Positions 7,784 through 24,248 of a stretch of 64,000 bases of DNA are shown one piece after another. Within the stretch, counting starts at the first letter, position 1, and each line of letters begins with the position of its first letter. Both the position numbers and the translations under genes were made by a program. Source of the stretch: an uncultured Verrucomicrobiae bacterium. Its GTDB lineage: Bacteria > Verrucomicrobiota > Verrucomicrobiia > Chthoniobacterales > UBA10450. The notes under the pieces were generated by a model that had not been told where the DNA came from, searched no databases, and worked only from the letters and a program-made list of their open reading frames with translations. The stretch lies in assembly GCA_963815455.1 (NCBI GenBank), contig CAWFGO010000001.1, forward strand, positions 1,472,001-1,536,000, in the 5' to 3' direction.

Positions 7784-7902
7784 GTCACGACCAATCTTTC
7801 CGGTCGCGAGTGTACCGAAGGGTTATCGGGTGACCAATCGAATCCTCAAAGGATCCCTCGGAGGACCAATAATCGGCCCAAATATTCCGCACCCGTGCGG
7901 AC

Positions 7903-8473
7903 CCACGGGTAAGAGCAGCCCTGGTCGAATGCGCCTGGCGCATGGTCCGTTTCCAGCCGCAATATCCACCGGTCAAAAAGAGGCTGCCCGTTTTGGCCAA
8001 AGGGGCAAAGGCCACCGGAGGGCAACGCAAAAAAGCGATCGTGGCCGTGGCGCGCCGGCTGGCGATGGATTTGTGGCGAGTGCATACCGGACGGCTCACG
8101 GCGCAACAATTGGGTTTAAATATTAAATAAATGAGTTCGAGGGGAACAGGGATGAGCTAACTCGATTAACTCAAAGAGAACGCTTTGGAACGTGGCGTGT
8201 GTCCGGAGTCTAACCTGGTCCGATCCCCGAAAACGTTCGGGGCTCGCACCGTCGCTTTAGATTGGACCGCGCCCACGTTCCGCTTCAGTTGGACGGCATA
8301 AGTCACATTGCGCTGTCAGCAAAAGCATCGACATGCGCGGATAGGAGTATCAGCCGCTGAACAACTCAGTGCGCACCAGAGGCGGAAGCGTTCCAGACCA
8401 ACTCCAACCTCAAACCCCAACAAAACCATGTAATCGCCATCCCCAAAAACTCACCGTTGACACCCTTCATAGG
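7903..8473 (+). mobile_element. Remnant IS110/IS1111-family element: transposase C-terminus, 3' non-coding region and right end; inserted in an attC
   Basis: PRVRAALVECAWRMVRFQP...KKAIVAVARRLAMDLWR (7903-8130) parallels the C-terminus of the 17111 transposase; right end TTGACACCCTTCATAGG abuts attC R'' GGTTAGAC (8474-8481). Confidence 0.85.
8186..8395 (+). ncRNA. Putative bridge/seek RNA of the IS remnant
   Basis: Outer stem 8187-8204/8264-8281, inner hairpin 8225-8242; loop GTCTAACC (8208-8215) complementary to the insertion flank; ATAGGAG at 8341-8347. Confidence 0.65.
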
Positions 8474-8906
8474 GGTTAGACGTTGTGTTGCTCGTGAAAT
8501 CTCGTGCGACATCGGGATGCCTTAACATAAGCGCAAACCAGACTGGGATCGAAGTGGTTCCGAGCGCAAGGCCCAGGGTAGACATTGAAGCAAGCACCCC
8601 GCCCTGCACGTGCACGCCCGACACCCCGAGGAAGAAGATGTCGCTGCAAACGGAGAGCGCGATGCCGACAGCAAGACAAAGACAGAGTCCGATGAGTGCA
8701 AGCCGGGCCCAATTCCGCGCGCGAAAGAGGAAATAACTCAGAGCTGCCAGCAACGCAGAAGCGACGAGAACAAGAACACTGCCAAGCTCGTCAGCCCAAC
8801 CGCGGGACGACCAGATGCCGTAGATGTACAGGTGTGCGCCGACCGCGACAACCGAGCCGCTTCCAACTGACGCCACTGCTCCTCCAATAATCGTTGGCCA
8901 ACGCAT
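8451..8906 (-). CDS. Cassette 26: membrane protein (C-terminus runs into the IS end)
   Basis: Several hydrophobic segments; lies between the attC at 8917 and the truncated attC at 8474. Confidence 0.75.
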   Translation of the reverse strand: MRWPTIIGGAVASVGSGSVVAVGAHLYIYGIWSSRGWADELGSVLVLVASALLAALSYFLFRARNWARLALIGLCLCLAVGIALSVCSDIFFLGVSGVHVQGGVLASMSTLGLALGTTSIPVWFALMLRHPDVARDFTSNTTSNPYEGCQR

Positions 8907-8916
8907 TACGCTTTAC

Positions 8917-9012
8917 GTCTAACGAGACAGAGATAAGCCACGGCAGGGTGTCGTGGCAAACACACTGAACGCATTTCGAAATGAAGCCGTTGGCTTCATC
9001 GATTTGTTAGAT
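8917..9012 (-). repeat. attC
   Basis: Plus strand GTCTAAC...GTTAGAT, imperfect palindrome. Confidence 0.9.
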
Positions 9013-9454
9013 GGTCTGGTCTGAAGACGTGTCGGGTAAGAGAGCCGGTGAGACAAGTAGCACCGCCGACAAGTGCGGCTATGCCACAAAACTCCCAAGC
9101 ACCGTATGACCAAGAGCCATCGCCTGGATACGCTAGGAAAACGCCTGTCATGATGAGAAATCCTGCAGTCGCCCCGCAGGCGGTGCAAATGGGCCAGTGC
9201 CACAAAGAGGATGATGAGGGCACAAAGAGGTAAAGAGGAATCAGAACGAAAAGCCACACGGGAATGATAAAGTATGCCATGAACCAGCTCGTCGCTATCG
9301 TACTGCCGAACACTAAGCCCACATCCAGCGCGTGGCGCTGCCGAATCGCATCGACGAAGTAGGTGGACTCGAGAGCTACGAGCGTCACCACCCAGCCGGC
9401 AAGAACCGCAACAAGCGTTCCAACGAGCTGCTTGAAGATGGAGCGTGCGACCAT
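8996..9454 (-). CDS. Cassette 25: membrane protein (copy of 19241-19699)
   Basis: ATG overlaps the GTTAGAT core; about four hydrophobic segments. Confidence 0.8.
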   Translation of the reverse strand: MVARSIFKQLVGTLVAVLAGWVVTLVALESTYFVDAIRQRHALDVGLVFGSTIATSWFMAYFIIPVWLFVLIPLYLFVPSSSSLWHWPICTACGATAGFLIMTGVFLAYPGDGSWSYGAWEFCGIAALVGGATCLTGSLTRHVFRPDHLTNR

Positions 9455-9576
9455 CTAACGAGACCAAGCTCAGCGGCGGCTACCAGGAGCGCGGCTGAAA
9501 ATCTCTGGAACTGTTTTAATCATGACAAAATATGAACGCACAGCGGTCCGCCGTTCGCTCCATCGCATGGTTAGAT
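9453..9576 (-). repeat. attC
   Basis: ATCTAAC...GTTAGAT. Confidence 0.9.
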
Positions 9577-9579
9577 GAT

Positions 9580-10011
9580 TTAATGATTCTCACCATGAAT
9601 TTCTTTTCCAAGTTTTTCTCCCAACGCACGGCCTTGCGCTGCCGAATCGACGAGCTTCTGATGCGTCTCAGTATCTGTAGAAACCAAATCGTCGCTCGCC
9701 GTAATCCCAAACGAATCGATGACAAGATCCTTCCGCCGATCCTCGAATAACAAAACTGTAGTGTAGCTCGATGTCGGACTCTCGGTCAGCGTAACGGAAT
9801 ATGGAAACTCGGCGGACACATCGAGTGACGAAATCTTTGCGTCTTTGACGGCAACCAAGACGCGCTTGTGTGCTGCAGCTGATATGATGAACCACGCGGG
9901 ATGCCCTTCCATCCGATGGGCCGCTGTCAATTTGAGATCACTGCGCTGATCGCCAGCGAGTGCGAATTGGCCGGTGATGACGAAGAGGAAAACGAGAACG
10001 CGCGCTATCAT
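9580..10011 (-). CDS. Cassette 24: secreted hypothetical protein (copy of 19825-20256)
   Basis: Signal peptide ending ALA; ATG in the core site. Confidence 0.8.
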   Translation of the reverse strand: MIARVLVFLFVITGQFALAGDQRSDLKLTAAHRMEGHPAWFIISAAAHKRVLVAVKDAKISSLDVSAEFPYSVTLTESPTSSYTTVLLFEDRRKDLVIDSFGITASDDLVSTDTETHQKLVDSAAQGRALGEKLGKEIHGENH

Positions 10012-16955: not shown

Positions 16956-17110
16956 AGGGCCTAACGAGAACAAGCTGAGCGACCGCCGCCGAGAGCGAGC
17001 GCGGCTTCAACTGAAACGGTTTTAATCATCTGAAATGTAAACACGCGCCGGGCGGCGGTTAGATGCCATGAAGGGTTGAAAAGCGTGGGCAAAACGGGCA
17101 CACGCGTTGT

Positions 17111-18439
17111 ATGAAAAACAAAACAACAACAACCCTTCATGGCGGAGAGAAGTTTAACAATTCAAGCGCCCCTGGCAATGGGGCAGTGAGGCGGGTGTGG
17201 AAGCTTGGGCTGGACGTGGACCTGCGTTTTATGGTGGTGGCGATCCAGTGTGGGCGGGGAACGATTGGGCCGGCGCGGAAGTATACTCGCGAGCAGTTGC
17301 TCGAGTGGGTGAAGCAAAAAGTGGGTGTAGGCGATGTGGTCTACGCGGTGTGGGAATGCTGCGGATTTGGTTATACGCTGCACGAGCAATTAACTCAAGC
17401 GGGAGCAAAGAGCGTCGGGACGACCCCGATGCGATTAAATTTGGAGCGGCGGCGGAAGAACGACCGGATGGATGCGCGCGAGTTGTGTGTGCGATTGAGC
17501 CGTTACCTGGATGGGCAGAGAGAGGAATTAAGACCAATCCGAATCCCGAGCCGGGGGGAGCAACAACGGCGGGAGCTGGGGCGGCAGCGGGAGTTTTGGA
17601 AACGCCAAGTGCGGCGGCTGGAGAATCACGGGCGAGCGCTGCGGATCGAGCACGAGCATGAGACGCTGGAGGCTGGGTGGGGCGGACCGCGGAAGTGGAA
17701 ACGAATCGGGCCGCAGTGCAGCGAGTTTGTGCGCGGGCAGCTTGAACCGGTCATGGAACAGATCCGAGCGGCCAAAGCGCAATTGGATCGGTTGACCCAG
17801 GAGATTGAAGCGCTGGTGAGGGAAGAAAAAATCCCGACGGGATTGGGTGCGCTAACGGTATCGCTGATCGACGGGGAGGTGTGCGATTGGCAACGCTTCA
17901 AGCATCGCAAAGCCGTGGGCAGTTACACTGGGTGTTGTCCTAGCGAATACAGTTCGGCCGGGATCCAGCGTTTTGGAAGCATCGACCGGCACGGCAACAA
18001 ACATTTGCGCACGCTCCTGGTCGAGGCGGTCTGGCGACTTCTTCGCTGGCAGCCTAACTGGCATGCTCGTCAGAAATATCTGGAGAAATTAAGGCACGGC
18101 GCCTCGCTGAAAAAGAAAATCGCAGTGGCCCTGGCCCGGCAACTGGCCATAGACATCTGGCGCTGGCGAACCGGCCGGGCCAGTGCCGCCGAACTGGGCT
18201 GGAGCCTGTCTAACATTCCAGGTGAAACCCTAACAAACAGATTTAACCCTCAGCTTTTACGAAACGGAACTTCCAAGCAAAGTTTGATTTGGCCGCAGGG
18301 TGGAACGCTGCTCGGCGCTGGAGCTGGTCCTTTGAAACGAAGGGATCATCGCTTAGATGGGGCGCGTTCCGCCCAAAGCGGCTTCCCAAAGTCAGGCACG
18401 ACATCATGGGCTCGCACAACAAAAGCGATGCTCGAATAG
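17111..18439 (+). CDS. IS110-family DEDD transposase/recombinase; last ~75 codons overlap the 3' non-coding region
   Basis: LGLDVD, WECCG, RKNDRMDA (DEDD); SYTGCCPSEYSSAG (catalytic Ser); GNKHLRTLLVEA; VALARQLA. Confidence 0.93.
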   Translation: MKNKTTTTLHGGEKFNNSSAPGNGAVRRVWKLGLDVDLRFMVVAIQCGRGTIGPARKYTREQLLEWVKQKVGVGDVVYAVWECCGFGYTLHEQLTQAGAKSVGTTPMRLNLERRRKNDRMDARELCVRLSRYLDGQREELRPIRIPSRGEQQRRELGRQREFWKRQVRRLENHGRALRIEHEHETLEAGWGGPRKWKRIGPQCSEFVRGQLEPVMEQIRAAKAQLDRLTQEIEALVREEKIPTGLGALTVSLIDGEVCDWQRFKHRKAVGSYTGCCPSEYSSAGIQRFGSIDRHGNKHLRTLLVEAVWRLLRWQPNWHARQKYLEKLRHGASLKKKIAVALARQLAIDIWRWRTGRASAAELGWSLSNIPGETLTNRFNPQLLRNGTSKQSLIWPQGGTLLGAGAGPLKRRDHRLDGARSAQSGFPKSGTTSWARTTKAMLE

Positions 18440-18495
18440 GAGCTGGTGACTCGCCCCGGCGAGACAACACGACAGAGGGAAGCTGCACCCTGCGG
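18293..18495 (+). ncRNA. Putative bridge/seek RNA
   Basis: Stems 18298-18308/18364-18374 and 18378-18387/18477-18486; loop GCGCTGGAGC (18315-18324) complementary to the target flank; ATAGGAG (18436-18442) matches the predicted circle junction. Confidence 0.7.
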
Positions 18496-18616
18496 ATCAA
18501 ACCACTAAAGATTGGAAAAACCGGGAAAGGAAAAAACTAAAGAAAAACAAACAATACCCGTTCCACGGTTGACAACCCTCATAGGCGCTCCAGCGCTTGG
18601 TTAGACCTATTCGTGA

Positions 18617-19161: not shown

Positions 19162-19257
19162 GTCTAACGAGACAGAGATAAGCCACGGCAGGGTGTCGTG
19201 GCAAACACACTGAACGCATTTCGAAATGGGGCCGTTGGCTTCATCGATTTGTTAGAT
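19162..19257 (-). repeat. attC
   Basis: Near-identical to 8917-9012. Confidence 0.9.
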
Positions 19258-19699
19258 GGTCTGGTCTGAAGACGTGTCGGGTAAGAGAGCCGGTGAGACA
19301 AGTAGCACCGCCGACAAGTGCGGCTATGCCACAAAACTCCCAAGCACCGTATGACCAAGAGCCATCGCCTGGATACGCTAGGAAAACGCCTGTCATGATG
19401 AGAAATCCTGCAGTCGCCCCGCAGGCGGTGCAAATGGGCCAGTGCCACAAAGAGGATGATGAGGGCACAAAGAGGTAAAGAGGAATCAGAACGAAAAGCC
19501 ACACGGGAATGATAAAGTATGCCATGAACCAGCTCGTCGCTATCGTACTGCCGAACACTAAGCCCACATCCAGCGCGTGGCGCTGCCGAATCGCATCGAC
19601 GAAGTAGGTGGACTCGAGAGCTACGAGCGTCACCACCCAGCCGGCAAGAACCGCAACAAGCGTTCCAACGAGCTGCTTGAAGATGGAGCGTGCGACCAT
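19241..19699 (-). CDS. Cassette 8: membrane protein
   Basis: Same protein as 8996-9454. Confidence 0.8.
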   Translation of the reverse strand: MVARSIFKQLVGTLVAVLAGWVVTLVALESTYFVDAIRQRHALDVGLVFGSTIATSWFMAYFIIPVWLFVLIPLYLFVPSSSSLWHWPICTACGATAGFLIMTGVFLAYPGDGSWSYGAWEFCGIAALVGGATCLTGSLTRHVFRPDHLTNR

Positions 19700-19821
19700 C
19701 TAACGAGACCAAGCTCAGCGGCGGCTACCAGGAGCGCGGCTGAAAATCTCTGGAACTGTTTTAATCATGACAAAATGTGAACGCACAGCGGTCCGCCGTT
19801 CGCTCCATCGCATGGTTAGAT
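19698..19821 (-). repeat. attC
   Basis: Near-identical to 9453-9576. Confidence 0.9.
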
Positions 19822-19824
19822 GAT

Positions 19825-20256
19825 TTAATGATTCTCACCATGAATTTCTTTTCCAAGTTTTTCTCCCAACGCACGGCCTTGCGCTGCCGAATCGACGAGC
19901 TTCTGATGCGTCTCAGTATCTGTAGAAACCAAATCGTCGCTCGCCGTAATCCCAAACGAATCGATGACAAGATCCTTCCGCCGATCCTCGAATAACAAAA
20001 CTGTAGTGTAGCTCGATGTCGGACTCTCGGTCAGCGTAACGGAATATGGAAACTCGGCGGACACATCGAGTGACGAAATCTTTGCGTCTTTGACGGCAAC
20101 CAAGACGCGCTTGTGTGCTGCAGCTGATATGATGAACCACGCGGGATGCCCTTCCATCCGATGGGCCGCTGTCAATTTGAGATCACTGCGCTGATCGCCA
20201 GCGAGTGCGAATTGGCCGGTGATGACGAAGAGGAAAACGAGAACGCGCGCTATCAT
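19825..20256 (-). CDS. Cassette 7: secreted hypothetical protein
   Basis: Same protein as 9580-10011. Confidence 0.8.
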   Translation of the reverse strand: MIARVLVFLFVITGQFALAGDQRSDLKLTAAHRMEGHPAWFIISAAAHKRVLVAVKDAKISSLDVSAEFPYSVTLTESPTSSYTTVLLFEDRRKDLVIDSFGITASDDLVSTDTETHQKLVDSAAQGRALGEKLGKEIHGENH

Positions 20257-23179: not shown

Positions 23180-23236
23180 GCCTAACGAGAATTAGACGAA
23201 GGTTCGTAATTAAAGGCGAACATTTTTTCGTCTAAC
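23180..23236 (-). other. attI site
   Basis: Minus strand GTCTAAT-TCTC-GTTAGGC (L and R boxes), plus an upstream direct-repeat GTTAGAC that overlaps the intI stop. Confidence 0.8.
23182..23223 (-). CDS. attI leader mini-ORF MFAFNYEPSSNSR*
   Basis: Starts 8 nt after the intI stop and ends on the TAG of the attI core. Confidence 0.55.
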   Translation of the reverse strand: MFAFNYEPSSNSR

Positions 23237-24248
23237 TAGGTTGAGGGTTCGAAGGGGGGCGGCAGTCGACAGGGCTGCGTACCCCCAGGCCGGGTTTATC
23301 CAATACATGAGTGTAAATCATTGTGGTTGAGACATCTTTGTGTCCAAGCAGTGCCTGAACGGTGCGAATATCGGAGCCGGCCTGGAGCAAATGGGTGGCA
23401 AAACTGTGTCGAAAGGTATGACAACTGGCCGGTTTGGCAATCCCGGCCCGTTGAATCGCCAGTTTTACCGCGTTTTGGAGGTTTTTTTCCTGAACGTGAT
23501 GCCTGCGAATCTCTCCCGAGCGCGGGTCGAGCGAGAGCTTGGCGGCCGGGAACACATATTGCCACGCCCAAGAGCGATCGGCGTTGCGATATTTGCGGGC
23601 CAAGGCGAAAGGCAGGTAGACTCTGCCCCGGCCTGCGGCGAGGTCCTGCCGGTGCAGCGCTCGCACCCGGCCAAGGTGCAGGTGCAATTCTTCGCGTCCT
23701 GCTTCCGGCAGAAGGGTAACTCGATCGCGCTGGCCTTTCCCGTCGCGAACAATAATCCGGTTGAGCCCCAAATCCACATCCTTGACGCGCAAGCGCACGC
23801 ACTCCATCAGACGCAGTCCGCTGCCGTAGAGTAAAAGGGCCATGAGATGGTATTCGGCTCTGAGTTGCGCGAGCACTGCGTGCGCCTCCTCCGGGGTGAA
23901 GACGACTGGAATTTTGGCTGGCCGTTTGACCCGCTCCGCATCGATGAAGTCGAGTTTTGTATTCAGTACCTCCTGATAAAGGAACAACAGAGCGGACAGA
24001 GCCTGGTTCTGAGTGGACGCAGCCACATGTTTGTTTACGGCCAGATGAGTGAGGAAACGGGTAATCTCCTCTTCGCCCATTTCGTTGGGGTGGCGTTTGC
24101 GATGAAAGAGGATGTAACGCCGGATCCAATCTAGGTAGGCCTGCTCGGTGCGGATGCTGTAGTGTTTTACTCGCAATTGCCAGCGAACGCGGTCGAGCAA
24201 CTTGGGCGACGAAGCGACGGTGGCGGTGGAGGGCGGCACGGTCGCCAT
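23232..24248 (-). CDS. intI: Integron integrase
   Basis: [33 protein letters not shown], IntI-specific patch [11 protein letters not shown]...[28 protein letters not shown]. Confidence 0.97.

What the first reader, a model, noticed from the sequence alone, without database searches (positions are those of the whole stretch)
7903..8481. Second IS110 relative with a different guide hitting a different position of the attC: natural reprogramming
Seen: the remnant has a similar right end (TTGACACCCTTCATAGG versus TTGACAACCCTCATAGG) and the same RNA layout (GGAACG stem, guide, TGGTCC, inner hairpin, TCGCT(T)TAGAT, later ATAGGAG). Its guide slot reads GTCTAACC (8208-8215), exactly complementary to its own flank GGTTAGAC (8474-8481, the R'' box), whereas the other element targets the L'' region. 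Guide and target therefore change together within one array. The element is 5'-truncated and marks the distal end of the array, which suggests a deletion removed further cassettes.
Basis: partly seen in the sequence, partly recalled or inferred. Interest (0 to 1): 0.78.

Follow-up and report, generated by a model that had tools for sequence, protein, structure and literature searches.

The report
RNA-guided jumping-gene remnant in integron
This is the broken tail of an RNA-guided jumping gene whose guide points at one end of the integron's cassette-recombination sites, while its distant cousin in the same array is guided to a spot 13 bases away; the mechanism is known, and these two aiming points in this bacterial lineage were not found in the papers searched.

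Summary
Confirmed. Window 7901-8473 is the 3' 573 bp of an IS110-family element with IS1111-type layout. Its RNA slot (8206-8215) is a target guide: among 181 de-duplicated relatives, 59 of 64 with an R''-type slot sit directly before GGTTAG, and none of 105 elements inserted next to L'' has that slot. The slot is unpaired in the consensus fold, though paired in the single-sequence fold. It also predicted the flank of a 33%-identical relative outside attC. But the switch is ancient: the two elements belong to clades of about 40% protein identity, with one change on the tree, so this is co-residence, not retargeting within the array. Both cut sites (1 and 14 nt before GTTAG) differ from the known IS1111-attC site (6 nt), whose transposase is 24-26% identical. 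The truncation is real; loss of further cassettes is not shown. Natural reprogramming and attC targeting are published, and this scan noted attC-targeting elements in other genomes. Verdict: new variant of a known kind, moderate interest.

The parts
7901..8473 (+). Remnant of an R''-type ('B') IS110-family element, 573 bp; full-length relatives are 1375-1642 bp, median 1483
   Evidence: blastn to full-length relatives starts at 7901; lengths of 55 full-length relatives
7903..8130 (+). C-terminal 74 codons and stop of the transposase; RuvC domain and catalytic serine loop absent
   Evidence: 93-94% aa identity to G061 copies and L182, 45% to the array's full element; alignment A1
8187..8281 (+). 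Target-binding loop of the predicted seek/bridge RNA: outer stem, guide, inner hairpin, second guide, outer stem
   Evidence: fold z = -4.99; consensus stems with compensatory changes; RNA itself inferred, not observed
8206..8215 (+). 10-nt guide slot; last 8 nt GTCTAACC complement the right flank (R'' box plus 1 nt)
8250..8258 (+). Candidate second (bottom-strand) guide resembling the attC bases left of the insertion point
   Evidence: covaries with the left flank in the L''-type clade; not significant within the R''-type clade
8259..8262 (+). AGAT, same as the first 4 nt of the left end of full-length relatives; possible pairing with the left junction
   Evidence: left ends tabulated; conserved on both sides, so no covariation test; inference
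8341..8347 (+). ATAGGAG, candidate donor guide matching the joined right and left ends of the circular form
   Evidence: changes with the element end in two distant relatives, L280 and L284; three sequence types only
8457..8473 (+). Right end: TTGACA box, subterminal inverted repeat ending in CAT, 3-bp extension AGG
8474..8481 (-). R'' box (plus 1 nt) of the last cassette's attC; the rest of this attC is missing
   Evidence: sequence; intact attCs of the array
8476..8906 (-). Distal cassette ORF (143 aa as translated; no NCBIfam family)
17061..18585 (+). Full-length L''-type ('A') element for comparison; 5 copies in the genome
   Evidence: NF033542 over cut-off
18315..18324 (+). Guide slot of element A, complementing 18587-18596 (the L'' box region)
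23232..24248 (-). Integron integrase, same strand as the cassettes; attI-like site near 23181-23240
   Evidence: TIGR02249 over cut-off; sequence

Best explanation
The stretch is a dead 3' fragment of an RNA-guided, IS1111-style insertion sequence from a mainly Verrucomicrobial lineage of the IS110 family. When intact, the element makes an RNA from its 3' non-coding region. A 10-nt slot on the 5' side of an internal loop pairs with the target strand right of the insertion point, a short stretch on the 3' side pairs with the other strand left of it, and a later motif reads the element's own joined ends; the DEDD transposase then inserts the element without target duplication. This element's clade is programmed for the R'' box of attC (cut 1 nt before GTTAG), the sister clade for the L'' box (cut 14 nt before GTTAG). 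The guides diverged once, long ago, and both clades colonised this integron. A later deletion removed the element's 5' part and the rest of the attC. Shown here: guide-flank covariation, insertion positions, clade structure, truncation. Inferred from Siddiquee 2024 and Durrant 2024: that the RNA is made, binds the transposase and pairs with DNA. Inferred only: loss of attC function, and the deletion mechanism.
For: 59 of 64 elements with an R''-type slot are followed by GGTTAG and 3 more by a one-mismatch variant; 0 of 105 L''-site elements have that slot. Slots match their own flank at about 7.3-7.6 of 8 and the other clade's flank at 3.5-3.7. Within clades, at 90%-identity representatives, own-flank match exceeds shuffles: 7.63 vs 6.61 (n = 57) and 7.54 vs 6.99 (n = 26), 0 of 10000 each. 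Consensus fold of 56 RNAs leaves the slot unpaired between two covarying stems. Out-of-sample: in a 33%-identical Paraburkholderia element the same slot matches its non-attC flank at 9 of 10. Left ends of 7 bp + ATG and right ends of CAT + 3 bp fit the IS1111 rule. L109 and L181 carry both types in one attC.
Against: No RNA or transposition data for this lineage. The remnant's own fold pairs 6 guide bases with UUAGAU (about 6 expected pairs). The second guide does not covary significantly within the R''-type clade (811 of 10000 shuffles as high). Two of 64 R''-slot elements have a non-matching immediate flank (L192, L213). No full-length copy of this element is in the genome, so its own left flank is unknown. 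Shuffles ignore relatedness and overstate significance.
Confidence: 0.88

Rival explanations
1. Recent retargeting inside this array or genome: the remnant derives from the resident L''-type element by a guide change.
For: Both sit in one array, with similar right ends and RNA layout.
Against: The remnant's C-terminus is 45% identical to the resident element but 93-94% identical to R''-type elements of other genomes; the two types fall on opposite sides of a long branch supported at 97.
Confidence: 0.03
2. Target choice is set by the transposase (or the folded attC hairpin); the slot only follows the clade, or forms a stem with UUAGAU.
For: Guide type and protein clade are confounded between the two clades; the single-sequence fold pairs the slot.
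Against: Covariation holds within each clade; two R''-clade elements, L175 and L176, changed slot and moved to a repeat outside attC; the slot-UUAGAU helix is 66.8% paired with one compensatory cell, against 97.3% and 90.6% for the flanking stems.
Confidence: 0.06
3. The remnant marks a deletion that removed further cassettes; R''-type elements seed deletions that trim arrays and neighbouring genes.
For: The remnant is at the distal end and lacks its 5' part and the attC's other arm. A second R''-type right end in this genome is fused to the first 46 of 414 profile positions of a prolyl oligopeptidase N-domain, with no remainder found. Truncated R''-type ends recur in relatives.
Against: No ancestral state is available: genes after the phosphoribosyltransferase vary among 13 relatives and none showed an array there. 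Other arrays end in half attCs without an IS. The genome is 90% complete. The element may simply have entered the last attC.
Confidence: 0.4
4. The orphan guide RNA is still used in trans and redirects the resident L''-type transposase to R''.
For: The loop looks intact; a seekRNA shared across 46%-identical transposases is reported (PMC11187229).
Against: All 4 copies of element A with a right end and the one copy of element C in this genome are at the L'' position; the junction promoter cannot form without a left end (inference).
Confidence: 0.04

Closest known systems
IS1111-attC group (ISKpn4, ISPst6, ISPa21; also ISPa25) and their seekRNAs (PMC11187229: passages, one part of Results and supplement search; PMC13604230: passages incl. 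Table 1; Tetu & Holmes 2008 and Post & Hall 2009 seen only as citations)
   Same: Insert into attC antisense to the cassettes (PMC3001079 passage); 3' non-coding region; top-strand guide before bottom-strand guide; 7-bp and 3-bp end extensions; stem-guide-hairpin-guide-stem layout also visible in the ISPa21-like element L284.
   Different: Cut 6 nt before GTTAG versus 1 nt (this element) and 14 nt (its sister clade). Transposases 24-26% identical. Known members are reported at one shared position; this lineage uses two main positions plus a 13-nt variant.
Natural reprogramming pair ISEc11 / ISXne4 (PMC11187229)
   Same: Related elements with conserved stems, changed guides and matching changed targets.
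   Different: That pair is 72% identical with unrelated targets; here the clades are about 40% identical and the targets are two parts of the same kind of site, sometimes the same attC.
IS110 bridge RNA of IS621 (PMC11208160, passages)
   Same: Target and donor read by RNA loops; guide-target covariation across orthologues.
   Different: IS621's RNA is upstream of the gene with the opposite guide order; here it is downstream, IS1111-style.
Group IIC-attC introns (PMC3001079, passages)
   Same: Mobile elements that home to attC on the bottom strand, mostly in the last cassettes of an array.
   Different: Retroelements with a different chemistry; no DEDD transposase.

Membership tests
IS110 family (broad) | DEDD transposase matching the family model | tested here: met
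   Full-length relative L003 scores 183.9 and element A 161 bits against NF033542 (cut-off 140); the remnant itself holds only 74 codons and has no Pfam hit.
IS1111 type | Long non-coding region downstream of tnp | tested here: met
   343 bp from stop (8130) to end (8473); about 225-590 bp in R''-type relatives.
IS1111 type | 7-bp left and 3-bp right terminal extensions, no target duplication | tested here: met
   Left ends of 7 bp + ATG in 54 of 55 R''-type relatives with a left end found, right ends CAT + 3 bp; flanks rejoin to a normal attC. Not testable on the remnant's own left end, which is lost.
IS1111 type | Subterminal inverted repeats of 11-13 bp, perfect or nearly so | tested here: inconclusive
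   Present but imperfect: 5-10 of 11 ungapped matches in 55 R''-type elements, mostly 7 of 11 in 80 L''-type.
IS1111 type | Transposase clustering with classical IS1111 proteins | tested here: inconclusive
   24-27% identity to two classical IS1111-like proteins of pME-1a, 27-37% to Rhodococcus and Paraburkholderia IS110-family proteins; only 5 long-branch outgroups.
IS1111 type | Guide order: top-strand complement 5' of bottom-strand match | tested here: met
   Slot precedes the second guide; significant for both guides in the L''-type clade, only for the first in the R''-type clade.
IS1111 type | RNA is expressed, binds the transposase and is needed for transposition | not testable with these tools
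   No RNA holder listed; needs bench work.
IS1111-attC group (ISKpn4/ISPst6/ISPa21) | Inserts into attC, antisense to cassettes | tested here: met
IS1111-attC group (ISKpn4/ISPst6/ISPa21) | Same insertion position in attC | tested here: not met
   1 nt before GTTAG in 63 of 63 R''-site elements (class defined by flank) versus 6 nt in L284 and in Table 1 of PMC13604230.
IS1111-attC group (ISKpn4/ISPst6/ISPa21) | Closely related transposase (86-89% among ISPst6, ISKpn4, ISPa21) | tested here: not met
   24-26% identity to the ISPa21-like protein of L284.

The most novel reading that the evidence does not exclude
An independent IS110-family lineage has divided the attC site among sister clades by guide change, one reading R'' and one reading L'', so that both can occupy the same array and even the same attC without competing; the R''-type elements then seed deletions that cap arrays and clip neighbouring genes. 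This would be niche partitioning of one target by RNA-guided parasites, and a ready-made natural set for testing how guide register fixes the cut position.
Probability: 0.25. Interest if true: 0.62.

Novelty: new variant of a known kind. Interest (0 to 1): 0.4.

Why it matters
It extends RNA-guided attC targeting to a lineage only a quarter identical to the known group, so attC was probably adopted as a target more than once, and at different positions. The set of 181 element ends with two main cut sites, a 1-nt register variant, doubly occupied attCs and retargeting off attC gives natural guide-target pairs for IS1111-type RNAs, whose donor recognition is less well worked out than that of IS621. 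For integron biology, such insertions may fix cassettes in place and erode array ends. The principle itself is published.

Tried and rejected
Synteny after the phosphoribosyltransferase gene in 13 relatives: neighbours vary, no array found within about 1.5 kb, so the extent of the deletion stays open. Sequencing runs: no RNA holder listed and no run held more than 6% of the words, so no reads were laid and neither expression nor the breakpoint could be checked. Single-sequence folding did not separate the clades: the slot pairs with UUAGAU in both (mean 2.5 and 3.2 pairs). A first flank-blind loop locator misplaced many loops and was replaced by a tighter one written after seeing the sequences; it missed L091 and L173 and misplaced L021 and L092. 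Rooting with 5 distant outgroups gave an unreliable root from a quick tree, so the direction of the switch is not claimed. The test for an attC left arm upstream of full-length elements used a loose pattern (39 of 55 R''-type positive) and is weak. Tetu & Holmes 2008 is not held; my recollection that it reports degenerate IS footprints at array ends is recalled, not checked, and if right makes the terminal position ordinary. Literature searches found no report of attC-targeting IS at the R'' or L''-distal positions or in Verrucomicrobia; subscription papers, ISfinder and bioRxiv supplements were not searchable, and one supplement of PMC11187229 was unreadable. Trans use of the orphan guide: no support.

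Full report
Observation. GTCTAACC occurs 6 times in the window against 0.54 expected; 8208-8215 is the only + strand match and the others lie at attC R'' ends, one being the remnant's flank at 8474-8481. Similarity to full-length relatives begins at 7901 (86% over 586 bp to L182), so the remnant is 7901-8473: 74 C-terminal codons, a 343-bp non-coding region and a right end. The integrase (TIGR02249) and an attI-like site lie at 23181-24248 on the cassettes' strand, so the remnant does sit at the distal end. A strict scan found 21 attC-like sites in the window.

The genome. It holds 5 copies of the full element A, all entering at the same point beside L'' (4 with a right end on their contig), one copy of a third element C (37% identical to A) at that same point, and 3 right ends of the remnant's type, all followed by GGTTAG. 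No left end of the remnant's type was found at an attC.

Relatives. DNA searches matched 16 of 61 and 22 of 401 genomes (counts include this genome); a protein profile matched 59 of 301 genomes of the family. Collection scans kept the best 80 of 330 and 80 of 512 hits, ranked by likeness to A, so A-type elements are over-sampled; named hosts are mostly Verrucomicrobiota. Of 263 sequences examined, 243 had a transposase C-terminus (248 ends); 193 distinct ends had a right end and flank; the loop was located without using the flank in 191; 181 remained after de-duplication. I relabelled L065 and L176 by hand; L021 and L092 are misplaced by the locator. L213 comes from unpublished genome G225 (one of the exceptions below); G008 and G015 contributed only. 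No conclusion depends on them.

Guide test. Of 64 elements whose slot ends CTAACC or CTAACA, 59 are followed by GGTTAG, 3 by a one-mismatch variant and 2 by something else (L192, L213). Of the other 117, only L021 is followed by GGTTAG, and by eye its slot is R''-type. None of 105 L''-site elements has the R''-type slot. Own-flank matches average 7.3-7.6 of 8; cross-clade matches 3.5-3.7. Within clades, at 90%-identity representatives, observed matches exceed all 10000 shuffles (7.63 vs 6.61, n = 57, L092 left out; 7.54 vs 6.99, n = 26); these shuffles ignore relatedness. The exact 8-mer is not required: the last two R'' bases match the guide in 37 of 58 cases. The second guide covaries with the left flank in the L''-type clade (4.02 vs 3.61, 0 of 10000, n = 43) but not significantly in the R''-type clade (n = 25; 811 and 2628 of 10000). 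As an out-of-sample check, a Paraburkholderia element about 33% identical has the same layout, and its slot matches its non-attC flank at 9 of 10.

Structure. The consensus of 56 RNAs leaves the slot open between two stems, 4 of 8 pairs with compensatory changes. The competing helix is 66.8% paired with one compensatory cell, against 97.3% and 90.6% for the stems. The criterion, stated for the consensus, is not met. ATAGGAG matches the element's joined ends and changes with them in L280 (ATAGAAG) and, less fully, in L284 (ATATACG): a likely donor guide, on three sequence types only.

History. The remnant's C-terminus is 93-94% identical to R''-type elements elsewhere and 45% to A. Full proteins of the two types are 32-48% identical. 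A quick tree of 94 representatives plus 5 outgroups needs one change of site; A and C group at 97, the R''-type side at 76, and the root is unreliable. The switch is therefore old, and its direction unknown. Further changes: a 1-nt shift in 6 elements of the L''-type clade, and L175/L176 inside the R''-type clade moved to a repeat outside attC with a changed slot (7-8 of 10 matches by eye). L109 and L181 have both types in one attC, 13 nt apart.

Deletion. About 900 bp of element and the attC's other arm are missing. What else was lost cannot be told: neighbours of the upstream gene vary in 13 relatives, and other arrays here end in half attCs without an IS. A second remnant is fused to the start of a prolyl oligopeptidase gene whose remainder was not found in this 90%-complete genome, which fits deletions reaching out from such elements.

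Comparison. ISKpn4, ISPst6 and ISPa25 target one attC position with a seekRNA, and ISEc11/ISXne4 already shows natural reprogramming (PMC11187229, part of Results and passages). Their cut lies 6 nt before GTTAG (PMC13604230 Table 1). I confirmed this on the element in pME-1a (L284), taken to be ISPa21 from PMC7232449 (passages); its transposase is 24-26% identical to this lineage. So the element works like IS1111-attC members but fails both group tests. The best plasmid hits listed were at most 37% identical (top 40 of at least 5000). Searches found no description of these positions. Earlier notes of this scan describe attC-targeting elements in other genomes, one at the R'' side; no look-alike by sequence was returned.

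Verdict. Observation confirmed; guide interpretation supported; 'within one array' corrected to co-residence of old clades; cassette loss unproven. New variant of a known kind, interest 0.40.

Noticed in passing
window 23181-24248: Integrase on the same strand as its cassettes with the attI-like site at its 3' end: the known inverted-integrase layout (PMC13323075 passage).
   Followed up: partly
G000 C1:294176, C1:1718268, C2:421873, C2:708451, C3:579912, C3:785769, C1:196706: Several other cassette arrays open with attI-like sites; the one at C2:421873 matches the window's over the 30 nt shown. Integrase genes near them were not searched for. Suggests a dispersed multi-array integron system.
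   Followed up: partly
G000 C1:1256365-1256760 (L017, L310): Second R''-type right end fused, at a short shared stretch, to the 5' part of a prolyl oligopeptidase gene; the rest of the gene was not found.
   Followed up: partly
G000 C1:196700-196900: Third, very short R''-type right end before a roughly 130-bp cassette-like stretch that starts at an attI-like site.
   Followed up: no
G000 C1:1713597-1715198 (L026): Element C: deep-branching relative with a 6-bp left extension that uses the same L''-side point as A.
   Followed up: partly
window about 8919-10011 and 19164-20256: Two adjacent cassettes occur twice in the array, nearly identical.
   Followed up: no
window about 18210: The window's copy of element A differs by a frameshift near codon 368 from the other copies, lengthening its ORF to 442 aa; real change or assembly error.
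   Followed up: no
L175, L176: R''-clade elements retargeted to a GC-rich palindromic repeat outside attC.
   Followed up: partly
L027, L019, L006, L004: Internally deleted derivatives: L027 keeps both ends and the guide RNA without a transposase; others join an attC left arm to the element's 3' part.
   Followed up: no
L280 (Paraburkholderia plasmid NZ_LR699557): Distant relative with the same RNA layout and a non-attC target, so the RNA family extends beyond Verrucomicrobiota.
   Followed up: partly
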